Origin: Escherichia coli
GTDB lineage: Bacteria; Pseudomonadota; Gammaproteobacteria; Enterobacterales; Enterobacteriaceae
Assembly: GCF_003334815.1 (NCBI RefSeq)
Contig: NZ_QOWO01000017.1
Length of the DNA: 64,000 bases
Strand: one strand, 5' to 3'
The translations under genes were made by a program, and so were the position numbers. Each line of letters opens with the position of its first letter. Position 1 is the first letter of the stretch. The notes beneath the pieces were generated by a model. It had not been told where the DNA came from, did not search any database, and saw only the letters and a list, made by a program, of their open reading frames with translations. This document shows positions 47,936-53,935 of this stretch, one piece after another.

Positions 47936-48703
47936 TTATTCATTTTTCGCTACCAGCAAAGAGAGATCCTGCTTCACCAGCGCGCGACTGGCACTCTCCG
48001 GCAAACCGTCGTCTGTAATAATCTGATCAAACTCGCTTAATGGTAACGCCAGCCATGTCGCCACCTGACCATATTTCGTCGCATCACAGACCAAAACTCG
48101 CTGGCGGCTGGCACTGGCAATCGCCCGTTTCACCGTGACTTTATCTTCCGCTGGCGTAGAAATCCCCCGCACACTCCATGACGATGCAGAAATAAAAGCC
48201 TGATCAATCATCAGGCTGCGCAGCATGGTCGCAGCGGCTTCCCCGACACAGGAACGGTTTTCCCGACACACTGCACCGCCAGTGTGAATAATTGTGCAAT
48301 TACTGTTGTCGAGCAAGTAGTCCGCAATAACGAAATCGTTTGTGACCACAGTCAGTGACTCCATGTGAATCAGATGCTGTGCTATCGCTAACGTGGTCGT
48401 TCCCGCATCCAGATAGATACAACTTCCCGGCTGAACAAGACTTGCCGCCAGCTTGCCAATAGCCGCTTTTTGCGTCATTGCCAGCGCAGTTTTTACCTGA
48501 TGAGAAGGTTCATGCGCCACGCGTCCCGGAGACTGGACGCCTCCGGACACCAGCACAACGGCTCCCTGCTGCTCCAGTTTTTGTAAATCCCGACGAATGG
48601 TCATATGTGACACATTCATTCTGTCCGTTAGTTCAGCAATACTGACAATGCCTTTTTCAGCTACCATCTCAAGGATGATTTGGCGACGCTCTACGGGTAT
48701 CAA
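47936..48703 (-). CDS. ygbI: DeoR-family transcriptional regulator YgbI (255 aa with TTG start; alternative ATG at 48733 gives 265 aa)
   Basis: DeoR HTH and sugar-binding domain; the TTG at 48703 is preceded by AAGGAG at ideal spacing, while the upstream ATG has no Shine-Dalgarno. Confidence 0.85.
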   Translation of the reverse strand: MIPVERRQIILEMVAEKGIVSIAELTDRMNVSHMTIRRDLQKLEQQGAVVLVSGGVQSPGRVAHEPSHQVKTALAMTQKAAIGKLAASLVQPGSCIYLDAGTTTLAIAQHLIHMESLTVVTNDFVIADYLLDNSNCTIIHTGGAVCRENRSCVGEAAATMLRSLMIDQAFISASSWSVRGISTPAEDKVTVKRAIASASRQRVLVCDATKYGQVATWLALPLSEFDQIITDDGLPESASRALVKQDLSLLVAKNE

Positions 48704-48898
48704 CTTTTGCTCCTTCCTTTGTCCTGCTGACATTCTACGCTATTTGCCTGCGAAACGTGCGCGGCGCAACTAACGCTTAGTTCACATAAAATAACACACA
48801 ATGTTAATTTATGTGAATCAGATCACCATATCGTTATCTTCCAGCGCTTATATTCACAATATCAAACAAAATATCACTTAAATTAACAAGGAGAGCAG

Positions 48899-49807
48899 AT
48901 GAAAACGGGATCTGAGTTTCATGTCGGTATCGTTGGCTTAGGGTCAATGGGAATGGGAGCAGCACTGTCATGTGTCCGCGCAGGTCTTTCTACCTGGGGC
49001 GCAGACCTGAACAGCAATGCCTGCGCTACGTTGAAAGAGGCAGGTGCTTGCGGGGTTTCTGATAACGCCGCGACGTTTGCCGAAAAACTGGACGCACTGC
49101 TGGTGCTGGTGGTCAATGCGGCCCAGGTTAAACAGGTGCTGTTTGGTGAAACAGGCGTTGCACAACATCTGAAACCCGGTACGGCAGTAATGGTTTCTTC
49201 CACTATCGCTAGTGCTGATGCGCAAGAAATTGCTACCGCTCTGGCTGGATTCGATCTGGAAATGCTGGATGCGCCAGTTTCTGGTGGTGCAGTAAAAGCC
49301 GCTAACGGTGAAATGACTATCATGGCCTCCGGTAGCGATATTGCCTTTGAACGACTGGCACCCGTGCTGGAAGCCGTTGCCGGAAAAGTTTATCGCATAG
49401 GTGCAGAACCGGGACTAGGTTCGACCGTAAAAATTATTCACCAGTTGTTAGCGGGCGTACATATTGCTGCCGGAGCCGAAGCGATGGCACTTGCAGCCCG
49501 TGCGGGGATCCCGCTGGATGTGATGTATGACGTCGTGACCAATGCCGCCGGAAATTCCTGGATGTTCGAAAACCGGATGCGTCATGTGGTGGATGGCGAT
49601 TACACCCCGCATTCAGCCGTCGATATTTTTGTTAAGGATCTTGGTCTGGTTGCCGATACAGCCAAAGCCCTGCACTTCCCGCTGCCATTGGCCTCAACAG
49701 CATTGAATATGTTCACCAGCGCCAGTAACGCGGGTTACGGGAAAGAAGACGATAGCGCAGTTATCAAGATTTTCTCTGGCATCACTCTACCGGGAGCGAA
49801 ATCATGA
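48899..49807 (+). CDS. ygbJ: 3-hydroxyisobutyrate-dehydrogenase-family oxidoreductase YgbJ (L-threonate dehydrogenase LtnD in later nomenclature)
   Basis: N-terminal NAD-binding GLGSMGMG motif, 302 aa. Confidence 0.88.
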   Translation: MKTGSEFHVGIVGLGSMGMGAALSCVRAGLSTWGADLNSNACATLKEAGACGVSDNAATFAEKLDALLVLVVNAAQVKQVLFGETGVAQHLKPGTAVMVSSTIASADAQEIATALAGFDLEMLDAPVSGGAVKAANGEMTIMASGSDIAFERLAPVLEAVAGKVYRIGAEPGLGSTVKIIHQLLAGVHIAAGAEAMALAARAGIPLDVMYDVVTNAAGNSWMFENRMRHVVDGDYTPHSAVDIFVKDLGLVADTAKALHFPLPLASTALNMFTSASNAGYGKEDDSAVIKIFSGITLPGAKS

Positions 49808-51705: not shown

Positions 51706-52482
51706 ATGCCTCGTTTTGCAGCTAATTTATCCATGATGTTCACCGAAGTGCCTTTTATTGAACGCTTCGCCGCAGCGCGAAAAGCCGGGTTCGATGCTGT
51801 GGAATTTCTGTTTCCCTATGACTACTCCACCCTGCAAATCCAAAAGCAACTGGAGCAAAACCATCTGACACTGGCGCTGTTCAATACCGCTCCCGGAGAT
51901 ATTAATGCGGGGGAATGGGGATTATCCGCCCTTCCCGGACGTGAGCACGAAGCACACGCAGACATCGACCTGGCACTGGAATATGCATTGGCGCTCAATT
52001 GTGAACAAGTCCATGTGATGGCAGGCGTCGTGCCCGCTGGCGAAGATGCTGAACGGTACCGGGCAGTATTTATCGATAATCTCCGCTACGCTGCCGACCG
52101 CTTTGCGCCACACGGCAAGCGAATATTAGTTGAAGCACTCAGCCCCGGCGTTAAGCCTCATTATCTCTTCTCCAGCCAGTATCAGGCACTGGCTATTGTT
52201 GAAGAAGTTGCGCGAGATAACGTGTTTATTCAACTAGATACTTTTCATGCGCAAAAAGTAGATGGCAACCTGACGCATTTAATCCGCGACTACGCCGGGA
52301 AATATGCGCACGTACAAATTGCCGGGCTACCTGATCGACATGAACCGGACGATGGAGAAATCAACTATCCGTGGCTGTTCCGCCTGTTCGATGAGGTGGG
52401 ATATCAGGGCTGGATCGGTTGTGAATATAAACCTCGTGGCCTCACCGAAGAAGGGCTTGGCTGGTTTGACGCCTGGCGCTAA
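51706..52482 (+). CDS. ygbM: Hydroxypyruvate-isomerase-like TIM-barrel protein YgbM (OtnI-type isomerase)
   Basis: Translation, 258 aa. Confidence 0.85.
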
Positions 52483-52570
52483 TTCGTTAAATCCCTAATT
52501 ACAACGTACCCATACATCCCCCCATCTACGGATGGGGTAGGTTAACTATAACTTTCAGACAGGGTTTCCC

Positions 52571-53935
52571 ATGTCCACAATTACATTGTTATGCATTGCG
52601 TTAACTGGCGTAATCATGCTGTTGCTGCTGGTCATCAAGGCAAAGGTACAACCATTCGTTGCTCTGCTCCTCGTCAGCCTGTTAGTCGCACTTGCGGCGG
52701 GTATACCGGCGGGCGAAGTGGGTAAAGTGATGATCGCCGGGATGGGCGGTGTGCTTGGTTCCGTCACTATTATTATTGGTCTGGGCGCTATGCTGGGGCG
52801 TATGATCGAACACTCTGGTGGTGCAGAGTCACTGGCTAATTATTTCAGTCGCAAGTTAGGTGACAAACGAACTATCGCTGCGCTGACTCTGGCAGCGTTC
52901 TTCCTCGGTATTCCCGTCTTCTTTGATGTCGGCTTTATTATTCTTGCGCCAATCATTTACGGTTTTGCCAAGGTTGCCAAAATATCGCCACTCAAATTTG
53001 GCCTGCCTGTCGCTGGGATCATGCTCACTGTTCACGTGGCGGTACCGCCGCATCCAGGCCCTGTCGCCGCAGCGGGGTTACTCCACGCAGACATCGGCTG
53101 GCTAACCATCATCGGTATTGCGATTTCTATTCCCGTAGGGGTTGTTGGCTACTTTGCAGCGAAAATAATCAATAAGCGCCAATATGCGATGTCAGTAGAA
53201 GTACTGGAACAGATGCAACTGGCTCCGGCCAGTGAGGAAGGCGCGACAAAATTAAGCGATAAAATAAATCCACCGGGCGTCGCGCTGGTCACCTCGCTAA
53301 TTGTTATTCCTATCGCGATTATCATGGCGGGTACGGTTTCCGCAACACTGATGCCGCCTTCGCATCCCCTGCTTGGTACGCTACAGCTGATCGGCTCACC
53401 AATGGTAGCTCTAATGATTGCGCTGGTGCTGGCATTCTGGTTATTGGCTTTACGTCGCGGCTGGAGCTTACAACACACCAGCGACATTATGGGCTCAGCG
53501 CTTCCTACTGCGGCGGTAGTGATTTTGGTTACTGGTGCTGGAGGGGTATTTGGCAAAGTGCTGGTGGAATCGGGCGTCGGCAAAGCCCTTGCCAACATGC
53601 TACAAATGATTGACCTGCCTCTGTTACCAGCCGCATTTATTATTTCACTGGCGCTGCGTGCATCGCAGGGGTCAGCAACCGTAGCAATACTGACAACCGG
53701 CGGGTTACTCTCAGAAGCGGTGATGGGATTGAATCCGATTCAGTGCGTATTGGTGACGCTGGCAGCCTGCTTTGGTGGGCTTGGTGCGTCACATATTAAT
53801 GACTCAGGGTTCTGGATTGTGACCAAATATCTGGGGTTATCGGTAGCAGACGGTCTGAAAACCTGGACAGTGTTAACGACCATTCTCGGTTTTACCGGAT
53901 TCTTAATTACCTGGTGCGTATGGGCGGTAATTTGA
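52571..53935 (+). CDS. ygbN: GntP-family permease YgbN
   Basis: 454-aa polytopic membrane protein with GntP-like sequence. Confidence 0.88.
   Translation: MSTITLLCIALTGVIMLLLLVIKAKVQPFVALLLVSLLVALAAGIPAGEVGKVMIAGMGGVLGSVTIIIGLGAMLGRMIEHSGGAESLANYFSRKLGDKRTIAALTLAAFFLGIPVFFDVGFIILAPIIYGFAKVAKISPLKFGLPVAGIMLTVHVAVPPHPGPVAAAGLLHADIGWLTIIGIAISIPVGVVGYFAAKIINKRQYAMSVEVLEQMQLAPASEEGATKLSDKINPPGVALVTSLIVIPIAIIMAGTVSATLMPPSHPLLGTLQLIGSPMVALMIALVLAFWLLALRRGWSLQHTSDIMGSALPTAAVVILVTGAGGVFGKVLVESGVGKALANMLQMIDLPLLPAAFIISLALRASQGSATVAILTTGGLLSEAVMGLNPIQCVLVTLAACFGGLGASHINDSGFWIVTKYLGLSVADGLKTWTVLTTILGFTGFLITWCVWAVI

What the first reader, a model, noticed from the sequence alone, without database searches (positions are those of the whole stretch)
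47936..53935. ygbI/ygbJKLMN acid-sugar catabolic cluster with tightly overlapped genes; ygbI most likely starts at TTG
The divergent DeoR regulator (ygbI) faces a five-gene unit: a dehydrogenase, a DUF1537 kinase, a class II aldolase-like decarboxylase, a hydroxypyruvate-isomerase-like protein and a GntP permease. It has ATGA-type overlaps at ygbJ/ygbK and ygbK/ygbL, implying translational coupling, and is consistent with the four-carbon acid sugar (L-threonate/D-erythronate type) pathway assigned to this family. For ygbI the ATG start of the ORF track (48733) lacks a Shine-Dalgarno, whereas a TTG at 48703 is preceded by AAGGAG at optimal spacing, so the 255-aa TTG-initiated protein is the better model. 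The cluster lies immediately upstream of the amber-interrupted rpoS.
Basis: partly seen in the sequence, partly recalled or inferred. Interest (0 to 1): 0.2.

Follow-up and report, generated by a model that had tools for sequence, protein, structure and literature searches.

The report
Known E. coli L-threonate operon, ygbI-ygbJKLMN
This is the already-described E. coli gene cluster for breaking down the four-carbon sugar acid L-threonate together with its repressor YgbI, and the proposed TTG start of the repressor gene is correct but has been in the literature since 2009 and is the current reference annotation.

Summary
Window 47936-53935 holds ygbI (DeoR-type repressor, minus strand) facing ygbJ/ltnD, ygbK/otnK, ygbL/otnC, ygbM/otnI and ygbN (GntP permease). 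All six score above NCBIfam equivalog cut-offs. ATGA overlaps occur at 49804-49807 and 51063-51066.

The TTG at 48703 is the start RefSeq already uses (255 aa; WP_001300386.1, NP_417215.2). A 2009 transcription-start study mapped the ygbI mRNA 5' end 21 nt upstream of this TTG. The "ATG" at 48733 lies inside the -10 box (TAGAAT, 48732-48737) and is not on that transcript. Six other loci (five other genera plus E. albertii) start at the same residue with TTG or GTG. Only Escherichia has the upstream ATG.

Published work shows YgbI represses ygbJKLMN from one intergenic site and that CRP footprints at 48812-48827.

Refinements:
- E. coli lacks denD, so only the L-threonate branch is encoded.
- rpoS is tail-to-tail with ygbN, not downstream of it.
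- The ygbK/ygbL overlap is missing from the K-12 reference, because K-12 carries a 1-bp deletion that truncates OtnK.

Interest is low.

The parts
47936..48703 (-). ygbI coding sequence, TTG start, 255 aa; DeoR-family repressor YgbI
   Evidence: NCBIfam NF040890 scores 484 bits against a cut-off of 400, aligning residues 1-253 to profile positions 1-253. The RefSeq CDS has the same ends.
48704..48733 (-). The 30 nt that the raw ORF adds upstream of the TTG. Not coding: it holds the 21-nt leader plus part of the promoter
   Evidence: Transcription start mapped at +9 of the old ATG, 21 nt upstream of the TTG (PMC2760140). The stretch is not conserved as protein and has no start codon outside Escherichia.
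48732..48737 (-). sigma-70 -10 element TAGAAT of the ygbI promoter; its last two bases are the A and T of the 'ATG' at 48733
   Evidence: PMC2760140 Table 2 gives 'atagCGTAGAATgtca'. Coordinates. Conserved as TAGAAT or TAAAAT in E. albertii, Entomohabitans and Salmonella.
48724..48725 (-). Mapped ygbI transcription start, transferred from K-12; the sequence is identical here
   Evidence: PMC2760140. The window and MG1655 are identical from 47700 to 48830.
48710..48715 (-). Shine-Dalgarno AAGGAG, 6 nt before the TTG
   Evidence: Purine-rich GGAG-like motifs precede the start in all orthologues.
48751..48781 (.). Published YgbI ChIP-exo peak (K-12), converted to window coordinates
   Evidence: PMC8464067 supplement gives 2859304-2859334 with signal/noise 12.5. 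I converted it assuming NC_000913.2 numbering, inferred from a recalled older ygbI position and the roughly 1978-nt shift seen. The conversion is an inference.
48781..48817 (.). 16-nt inverted repeat TTCACATAAAATAACA / TGTTAATTTATGTGAA with a 5-nt spacer; candidate YgbI operator
   Evidence: 94% complementary. The box recurs at the same distance from ygbJ in six genera. Binding to these boxes was not shown.
48812..48827 (+). CRP site TGTGAatcagaTCACC, overlapping the right arm of the repeat
   Evidence: In vitro CRP footprint 'taTGTGAatcagaTCACCata' listed for ygbI/ygbJ (PMC12871828). Conserved in six genera, always 34.5 nt from the -10-like hexamer.
48849..48854 (+). Candidate -10 (TATATT) of the ygbJ promoter
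   Evidence: Conserved as TATATT or TACATT at a fixed distance in six genera. No mapped ygbJ start was found, so this is an inference.
48873..48888 (+). Third copy of the box (ATCACTTAAATTAACA), abutting the ygbJ ribosome-binding site
48899..49807 (+). ygbJ = ltnD, L-threonate (2-)dehydrogenase, 302 aa
   Evidence: NF043037 scores 473.7 bits against a cut-off of 350. GxGxxG motif VGLGSMG visible. The best PDB match is a chain of 303 residues, 3G0O.
49804..51066 (+). ygbK = otnK, 3-oxo-tetronate kinase (former DUF1537), full-length 420 aa
   Evidence: NF043035 scores 598 bits against a cut-off of 350. Pfam SBD_N 4-228 and NBD_C 253-411, both complete. PDB 3DQQ, 1YZY, 5DMH.
50951..50955 (+). C5 run in ygbK. 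K-12 has C4 here, a frameshift to a 388-aa product and loss of the ygbK/ygbL overlap
51063..51701 (+). [quoted passage not shown]
   Evidence: NF043034 scores 334.8 bits against a cut-off of 250. PDB 6VOP covers the full length.
51706..52482 (+). ygbM = otnI, 2-oxo-tetronate isomerase (hydroxypyruvate-isomerase-like TIM barrel), 258 aa
   Evidence: NF043033 scores 396.4 bits against a cut-off of 325. PDB 1K77 'hypothetical protein ygbM'.
52520..52537 (+). 7-bp GC-rich hairpin CCCCATC-TACG-GATGGGG in the ygbM-ygbN spacer, with no T tract
   Evidence: Function unknown.
52571..53935 (+). ygbN, GntP-family permease, 454 aa; presumed acid-sugar importer
   Evidence: NF007332 scores 827 bits against a cut-off of 524. 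Substrate untested.
53943..53971 (.). Hairpin with an A tract on one side and a T tract on the other, just after ygbN; likely terminator of the operon
   Evidence: Read directly from the sequence. The simple scan did not list it.

Best explanation
The region is the E. coli ygbI / ygbJKLMN locus, also named ltnD-otnK-otnC-otnI-ygbN.

The five plus-strand genes form one transcription unit. It encodes the four-step route L-threonate -> 2-oxo-tetronate (LtnD) -> 3-oxo-tetronate (OtnI) -> 3-oxo-tetronate 4-phosphate (OtnK) -> dihydroxyacetone phosphate + CO2 (OtnC), plus a GntP-type importer.

The divergent gene ygbI encodes a DeoR-type repressor present at a few copies per cell. It binds the 195-bp intergenic region and shuts off the operon and its own gene.

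The operon promoter looks like a class II CRP-dependent promoter. The CRP site would be centred 41.5 nt upstream of the inferred start, and it overlaps one arm of a conserved 16-nt inverted repeat. Repressor and activator would therefore compete.

The ygbI mRNA starts at 48724/48725 from a promoter whose -10 hexamer contains the spurious ATG. Translation therefore begins at the TTG at 48703, 6 nt after AAGGAG, and gives the 255-aa protein.

Shown here or in print: gene identities, overlaps, the ygbI transcription start, repression by YgbI, and in vitro CRP binding.

Inferred: the exact operator boxes, the ygbJ transcription start, translational coupling, and L-threonate as the natural substrate in E. 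coli.
For: Identity:
- Equivalog-level NCBIfam hits above cut-off for all six proteins.
- Pfam SBD_N plus NBD_C in YgbK.
- Solved structures of the E. coli or near-identical proteins.
- RefSeq names ltnD and otnK at these coordinates.

Pathway: the four-step scheme and the knockout phenotypes of Zhang et al. 2016, as summarised in PMC12994016 and PMC12540250.

TTG start:
- RefSeq CDS ends at window 48703.
- Transcription start 21 nt upstream of the TTG, with -10 CGTAGAAT (PMC2760140).
- Anti-SD pairing of -8.0 versus -2.6 kcal/mol.
- All 21 orthologues aligned with the window sequence start MIP.ER (one is written VIP) at this position, and P13, E15 and R16 are invariant.
- Start codons are TTG in Escherichia, Entomohabitans and Salmonella, and GTG in Serratia, Yersinia and Dickeya.
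- Codons 3 and 5 change synonymously across genera: CCC/CCG/CCT and GAG/GAA.
- Salmonella, Yersinia and Dickeya have in-frame stops 4-6 codons upstream, and no genus outside Escherichia has an upstream start.

Regulation:
- A single YgbI ChIP-exo site lies between ygbI and ygbJ.
- Deleting ygbI raises ygbJ, K, L, M and N by log2 5.55, 5.15, 5.09, 4.62 and 3.95 (PMC8464067).
- An RNA-seq transcript spans ygbK-ygbL (PMC4168707).
- YgbI is present at 2-6 copies per cell (PMC7567609).
- A CRP footprint covers the exact sequence of 48810-48830 (PMC12871828).
- Box, CRP site and -10 keep the same geometry in six genera.
Against: - No N-terminal peptide or ribosome-profiling evidence for YgbI was found.
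- I could not read the primary pathway paper. I found no assay of the E. coli enzymes themselves or of growth of E. coli on L-threonate. MG1655 products are still labelled 'putative'.
- Gao et al. 2021 interpret the locus as L-tartrate catabolism.
- The converted ChIP-exo peak (48751-48781) abuts the conserved repeat rather than covering it.
- No ygbJ transcription start was found, so the -41.5 geometry is inferred.
- A second predicted ygbI promoter further upstream (TTCACA-18-TATTTT) could in principle give a transcript that contains the ATG.
Confidence: 0.9

Rival explanations
1. ygbI is translated from the ATG at 48733 to give a 265-aa protein, either exclusively or as a second isoform, from a transcript that starts further upstream.
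For: The ORF is open from the ATG. A consensus-type promoter, TTCACA-18-TATTTT at 48817-48788, lies upstream and is also listed in PMC3946193. ATG is intrinsically a stronger start codon than TTG.
Against: There is no Shine-Dalgarno sequence (-2.6 kcal/mol). The mapped 5' end is downstream of the ATG. The ATG exists only in Escherichia, and three genera have in-frame stops there. The extension is unconserved, whereas residues from the TTG onward are invariant. RefSeq abandoned this start: NP_417215 is at version 2.
Confidence: 0.03
2. The natural substrate of the E. coli cluster is tartrate (L- or meso-) rather than L-threonate, as proposed from K-12 phenotypes.
For: A ygbI deletion lets K-12 grow on L-tartrate (PMC8464067). 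Both meso-tartrate evolution lines acquired ygbI mutations with ygbJKLMN overexpression (PMC6452873).
Against: Growth needs loss of the repressor, so tartrate does not induce the operon. The authors of the evolution study themselves call the activity promiscuous. All four enzymes match equivalog models built for the L-threonate pathway. The K-12 strain used carries a truncated OtnK, so its phenotype need not reflect the intact pathway.
Confidence: 0.12
3. ygbJK, ygbLM and ygbN are three separate transcription units, as listed in RegulonDB, rather than one operon.
For: This is the database operon model quoted in PMC4168707 and PMC8464067. There is an 88-nt spacer with a hairpin before ygbN. A weak promoter-like match lies at 51036-51064.
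Against: In the window ygbK and ygbL overlap by 4 nt. The 91-nt gap exists only in K-12, because of a 1-bp deletion. All five genes are derepressed together with a smooth gradient. RNA-seq joins ygbK to ygbL. The promoter-like matches are no more frequent than in shuffled sequence: 6 found against 5.6 expected.
Confidence: 0.1

Closest known systems
ygbI-ygbJKLMN locus of E. coli K-12 MG1655 (b2735-b2740)
   Same: Same genes, order and orientation. ygbI and its 5' region are identical (no difference from 47700 to 48830). Only 13 substitutions separate the two sequences across 6.4 kb. ygbI is annotated from the same TTG.
   Different: K-12 has a C4 instead of a C5 run at window 50951-50955. This truncates YgbK to 388 aa, removing the conserved PGVPW...LALKSGNFG segment and leaving a 91-nt gap before ygbL. 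The window has the 420-aa form that overlaps ygbL, as do E. albertii and Salmonella. The window also has an amber codon in the neighbouring rpoS.
Four-step L-threonate / D-erythronate catabolic pathway (LtnD or DenD, OtnI, OtnK, OtnC; Zhang et al. 2016, PNAS 113:E4161)
   Same: All four enzymes of the L-threonate branch are present, clustered, and score as equivalogs. The kinase has the complete two-domain DUF1537 architecture.
   Different: No DenD, so the D-erythronate entry step is missing. The E. coli enzymes and growth phenotype were not verified in anything I could read. The transporter is GntP-type.
Salmonella enterica ygb cluster (locus L006)
   Same: A divergent ygbI, also with a TTG start. 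Same order ltnD-otnK-otnC-otnI, the same 4-nt otnK/otnC overlap, and the same box, CRP-site and -10 layout.
   Different: It carries an extra denD (NF043036, 451 bits against a cut-off of 325) between otnI and a more divergent 498-aa GntP permease. Its neighbours on the ygbI side differ.
DeoR/GlpR-family sugar repressors (GlpR, AgaR, SrlR, DeoR)
   Same: N-terminal winged-helix domain plus C-terminal DeoRC sensor domain. Divergent from the operon it controls, and autoregulated.
   Different: It scores far below the cut-offs of those specific families: for example AgaR at 166 bits against 260, and GlpR (a haloarchaeal model) at 165 against 300. The effector is unknown.

Membership tests
YgbI (DeoR-family repressor) | Full-length match to the YgbI equivalog model above its curated cut-off, with HTH_DeoR plus DeoRC domains | tested here: met
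   NF040890 scores 484 bits against 400, residues 1-253 to profile positions 1-253. PF08220 and PF00455 are recorded on the 98%-identical P0004.
YgbI (DeoR-family repressor) | Binds the ygbI-ygbJ intergenic region and represses ygbJKLMN | not testable with these tools
   Shown for K-12 by ChIP-exo and RNA-seq (PMC8464067). The window's ygbI and its 5' side of the intergenic region are identical to K-12; one substitution lies at 48831.
LtnD (L-threonate dehydrogenase) | Equivalog model score above cut-off; NAD-binding Rossmann motif | tested here: met
   NF043037 scores 473.7 bits against 350. The next best family, tartronate semialdehyde reductase, scores 197 against 397. GLGSMG motif visible.
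LtnD (L-threonate dehydrogenase) | Oxidises L-threonate at C2 with NAD+ | not testable with these tools
   No assay of the E. coli enzyme was found in the papers I could read.
OtnK (3-oxo-tetronate kinase, DUF1537) | Complete SBD_N plus NBD_C domains, and equivalog score above cut-off | tested here: met
   PF07005 covers residues 4-228 and PF17042 residues 253-411 (model positions 1-168 of 168). NF043035 scores 598 bits against 350. The C-terminal LALKSGNFG motif is shared with 3DQQ, 1YZY and 5DMH.
[quoted passage not shown] | Class II aldolase fold with equivalog score above cut-off, distinct from FucA | tested here: met
   NF043034 scores 334.8 bits against 250, while the FucA models score 81-103 against 250-400. 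The HLH and NHG histidine motifs are visible.
OtnI (2-oxo-tetronate isomerase) | Equivalog score above cut-off, distinct from hydroxypyruvate isomerase | tested here: met
   NF043033 scores 396.4 bits against 325. The hydroxypyruvate isomerase model TIGR03234 scores 298 against 353, below its cut-off.
Four-step L-threonate pathway cluster | ltnD, otnI, otnK and otnC co-located and co-regulated | tested here: met
   Four contiguous genes. Co-derepression in a ygbI deletion. The same cluster is found in Salmonella, Serratia, Dickeya, Entomohabitans and E. albertii.
D-erythronate branch of the pathway | Presence of DenD (D-erythronate dehydrogenase) | tested here: not met
   No such gene lies between 47936 and 53935. 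Salmonella has one, NF043036 at 451 bits against 325.
Translationally coupled gene pairs | Stop of the upstream gene overlaps the start of the downstream gene (ATGA) | tested here: met
   49804-49807 and 51063-51066. Coupling itself was not tested.
Class II CRP-dependent promoter | CRP site centred near -41.5 from the transcription start | tested here: inconclusive
   The CRP site is real in vitro (PMC12871828). It sits 34.5 nt from a conserved -10-like hexamer in six genera. However, no ygbJ start site was found, so -41.5 is inferred.

The most novel reading that the evidence does not exclude
The K-12 reference lineage carries a broken copy of this operon. A 1-bp deletion truncates OtnK and removes a conserved part of its nucleotide-binding domain. 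If so, K-12-based results describe a crippled locus: the split ygbJK/ygbLM operon model, the 'tartrate' role, and perhaps an inability to use L-threonate. The window would then hold the intact ancestral operon, which may support growth on L-threonate.
Probability: 0.45. Interest if true: 0.3.

Novelty: already known. Interest (0 to 1): 0.07.

Why it matters
It matters little as a discovery. The locus, its repressor, its pathway assignment and the TTG start are all in databases and papers.

The check is still useful in three ways:
- It shows that a raw ORF track overcalls ygbI by 10 codons, because the first ATG is really part of the promoter's -10 box.
- It narrows the predicted substrate range to L-threonate, since denD is absent.
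- It shows that the K-12 reference is atypical at otnK. That explains the database's split operon model and should be kept in mind when K-12 phenotypes are used to assign a function to this cluster.

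Tried and rejected
I obtained orthologous DNA through the search for homologous proteins plus look-up of encoding contigs instead.
- The primary pathway paper (PMC4961189) is not held, so the pathway is cited through two later papers.
- I looked for variation among E. coli genomes that might break the ATG-TTG stretch. The 81-nt region is identical in 4339 of the 4588 genomes that carry it, so it gives no test.
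- The consensus promoter and terminator scan found no more sites than in shuffled sequence: 6 against 5.6, and 7 against 7.6. I gave it no weight on its own.
- The Rfam scan of 47500-55800 found nothing.
- I considered a downstream start at the ATG at 48667 (codon 13 of the 255-aa protein). I rejected it for two reasons: there is no SD (-1.5 kcal/mol), and residues 2-6 are conserved as protein with synonymous third-position changes.
- I considered the 6-3-6 palindrome AACTAAGCGTTAGTT (48768-48782), which lies inside the ChIP-exo peak, as the operator. It is degenerate in E. albertii and I saw no counterpart in the Entomohabitans or Salmonella intergenic sequences by eye. The 16-nt box is the better candidate, but neither is proven.

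Full report
**What is there.** The window around 47.9-54.0 kb reads mutS, pphB, ygbI (minus strand), ygbJ, ygbK, ygbL, ygbM, ygbN (plus strand), then rpoS, nlpD and pcm (minus strand). The 6.4-kb stretch 47700-54100 is 100% identical to several complete E. coli genomes. RefSeq labels the genes there as ygbI, ltnD, otnK, ygbL, ygbM and ygbN.

All six products score above the curated cut-offs of NCBIfam equivalog models:

| Product | Model | Score (bits) | Cut-off |
|---|---|---|---|
| YgbI | NF040890 | 484 | 400 |
| L-threonate dehydrogenase | NF043037 | 474 | 350 |
| 3-oxo-tetronate kinase | NF043035 | 598 | 350 |
| 2-oxo-tetronate isomerase | NF043033 | 396 | 325 |
| GntP-family transporter | NF007332 | 827 | 524 |

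[quoted passage not shown] Solved structures exist for these proteins or near-identical ones: 1K77, 6VOP, 3DQQ and 3G0O.

**The overlaps.** ygbJ/ygbK (TCATGATC) and ygbK/ygbL (TCATGAGC) overlap by the four bases ATGA, at 49804-49807 and 51063-51066. ygbL and ygbM are 4 nt apart, with AAGGAG inside the end of ygbL. ygbM and ygbN are 88 nt apart, with a short GC hairpin at 52520-52537.

E. albertii has exactly the same gene lengths and overlaps. Salmonella and Serratia keep the 4-nt otnK/otnC overlap, and Dickeya keeps the ltnD/otnK one. Overlaps of this type are common in bacterial operons. They are compatible with translational coupling but do not demonstrate it.

**The ygbI start.** On the minus strand the sequence reads TAGA-ATG-TCA-GCA-GGA-CAA-AGG-AAG-GAG-CAA-AAG-TTG-ATA-CCC.
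- The ATG is at 48733 and the TTG at 48703.
- AAGGAG lies at 48710-48715, 6 nt before the TTG.
- Predicted pairing with the 16S rRNA 3' end is -8.0 kcal/mol before the TTG and -2.6 before the ATG. Only 4% of positions in the region reach -8.

The conclusion is already established:
- RefSeq annotates ygbI as 768 nt ending at window 48703, both in the identical strain FORC 064 (WP_001300386.1) and in K-12 MG1655 (NP_417215.2, a revised version).
- Mendoza-Vargas et al. 2009 mapped the ygbI 5' end at +9 of the then-annotated ATG and named the -10 element CGTAGAAT.
- The same paper noted that orthologues are 10 residues shorter and stated that the annotation was wrong. The start site lies 21 nt upstream of the shorter start (PMC2760140).

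In window coordinates the -10 hexamer is 48732-48737 and the mRNA starts at 48724/48725. The 'ATG' is therefore part of the promoter and is absent from that transcript. The window is identical to MG1655 from 47700 to 48830, so the K-12 data transfer directly.

**Comparative support for the TTG, generated here.**
- All 21 YgbI orthologues aligned with the window sequence, from Salmonella to Pantoea, begin MIP.ER (one is written VIP) at the TTG-equivalent position. P13, E15 and R16 are invariant, and none has an extension.
- In DNA, the start codon is TTG in E. coli, E. albertii, Entomohabitans and Salmonella, and GTG in Serratia, Yersinia and Dickeya.
- Codons 3 and 5 differ only at synonymous third positions.
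- The upstream in-frame ATG exists only in the two Escherichia species. Entomohabitans has ATT there. Salmonella, Yersinia and Dickeya have in-frame stops 4-6 codons upstream.
- A non-AUG start is thus a conserved property of this repressor gene. That fits its measured abundance of 2-6 molecules per cell (values reprinted in PMC7567609).

**Function and regulation.** The four-step pathway runs as follows: LtnD oxidises L-threonate to 2-oxo-tetronate, OtnI isomerises it, OtnK phosphorylates it, and OtnC decarboxylates it to DHAP. It comes from Zhang et al. 2016. I could not open that paper, so I cite it through PMC12994016 and PMC12540250.

E. coli lacks the D-erythronate dehydrogenase DenD. 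Salmonella carries it inside its cluster. So only the L-threonate branch is encoded here.

YgbI has a single ChIP-exo site between ygbI and ygbJ. Deleting ygbI raises ygbJ, K, L, M and N by log2 5.55, 5.15, 5.09, 4.62 and 3.95 (PMC8464067). That smooth gradient, together with an RNA-seq transcript joining ygbK to ygbL (PMC4168707), fits one five-gene unit.

**The intergenic region.**
- It contains a 16-nt inverted repeat at 48781-48796 / 48802-48817, and a third copy at 48873-48888 that abuts the ygbJ ribosome-binding site.
- The distal box recurs at the same distance from ygbJ in all six loci, and the box next to the ygbJ ribosome-binding site in five of them (not Entomohabitans). All six also share a TGTGA-N6-TCACC-type CRP-like site and a TATATT/TACATT hexamer exactly 34.5 nt from the centre of that site.
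- A 2026 preprint lists an in vitro CRP footprint with exactly this sequence (PMC12871828).
- With a start 7 nt after the hexamer, the CRP site would sit at -41.5, the class II position. It would overlap the repeat, so repressor and activator would compete. This last step is my inference.
- The converted ChIP-exo peak (48751-48781) adjoins the repeat rather than covering it, and no ygbJ start site was found.

**Tartrate.** K-12 lacking ygbI grows on L-tartrate, and meso-tartrate evolution lines pick up ygbI mutations. Because growth needs loss of the repressor, I read this as promiscuous use of overexpressed enzymes rather than the native role. The evidence is indirect.

**An unexpected detail.** MG1655 annotates ygbK as 388 aa followed by a 91-nt gap. 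The cause is a C4 run where the window has C5 (50951-50955). This shifts the frame after about residue 383 and deletes [36 protein letters not shown].

That segment is conserved in all three OtnK structures and forms the end of the NBD_C domain. The K-12 allele occurs exactly in 370 of the 4581 genomes that carry the region. All 60 rows listed with this allele that I could place by name are K-12 derivatives or laboratory strains, plus BLR(DE3).

The database split into ygbJK and ygbLM operons rests on a K-12-specific lesion. Whether the truncated kinase is inactive is untested.

**The rpoS remark.** The TAG at codon 243 (54293-54295) is real. None of 5420 complete RefSeq genomes matches this 1165-nt stretch perfectly; the best is one mismatch. 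The mutation therefore appears private to the source strain. rpoS converges on ygbN tail-to-tail.

**Verdict.** Everything central to it is already known, so interest is low.

Noticed in passing
window 50951-50955 (ygbK); compare L010 5183: K-12 MG1655 and its derivatives have a 1-bp deletion (C5 to C4) in ygbK/otnK. It truncates the kinase from 420 to 388 aa, removes the conserved LALKSGNFG C-terminal segment and creates the 91-nt ygbK-ygbL gap behind RegulonDB's split operons. The window has the intact form.
   Followed up: partly
window 54293-54295 (minus strand), rpoS codon 243: GAG to TAG amber truncates RpoS before region 4. No complete RefSeq E. coli genome among 5420 matches this stretch perfectly, so the mutation looks private to the source strain. 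Codon 33 is GAG (Glu), not the K-12 state as I recall it.
   Followed up: partly
window 51706-52482 (ygbM): NCBIfam NF007441 (PRK09989) and hence RefSeq call YgbM an 'HPr family phosphocarrier protein'. It is a TIM-barrel 2-oxo-tetronate/hydroxypyruvate isomerase homologue (NF043033, PDB 1K77). The name appears to be a database misnomer.
   Followed up: partly
window 47936-53935: The cluster is present in only about 4580 of 5426 complete E. coli genomes, although the flanks match in 5417. It sits in a variable stretch between mutS and rpoS. Salmonella has a different gene set (MarR-type regulator, UbiX/UbiD-like decarboxylase genes) between ygbI and rpoS.
   Followed up: partly
window 52520-52537: A perfect 7-bp GC-rich hairpin (CCCCATC TACG GATGGGG) without a T tract lies in the ygbM-ygbN spacer. 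It might account for the lower derepression of ygbN. Function unknown.
   Followed up: no
L008 8001-8771 (Yersinia pseudotuberculosis): A YgbI orthologue (61% identity, GTG start) stands alone, with no ltnD/otnK/otnC/otnI genes within 8 kb. It is an orphan repressor.
   Followed up: no
L002 (RKCM01000024.1, labelled Oscillospiraceae MAG): This 9.3-kb contig carries a ygbI 100% identical to E. coli. It is almost certainly E. coli DNA mis-binned into a Firmicutes metagenome-assembled genome.
   Followed up: no
hit H1, E. coli ML35 NZ_CP025747.1 1007036-1016277: The otherwise identical region spans 9242 nt instead of 6401 and matches in two pieces. This suggests an insertion of about 2.8 kb, perhaps an IS element, somewhere in the cluster in ML35.
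   Followed up: no
window 53954-54595 (+) and 50159-50866 (-): Long ORFs of 213 and 235 aa run antisense to rpoS and ygbK. I did not search either against any protein database and take them to be by-products of the coding strand opposite, not genes.
   Followed up: no
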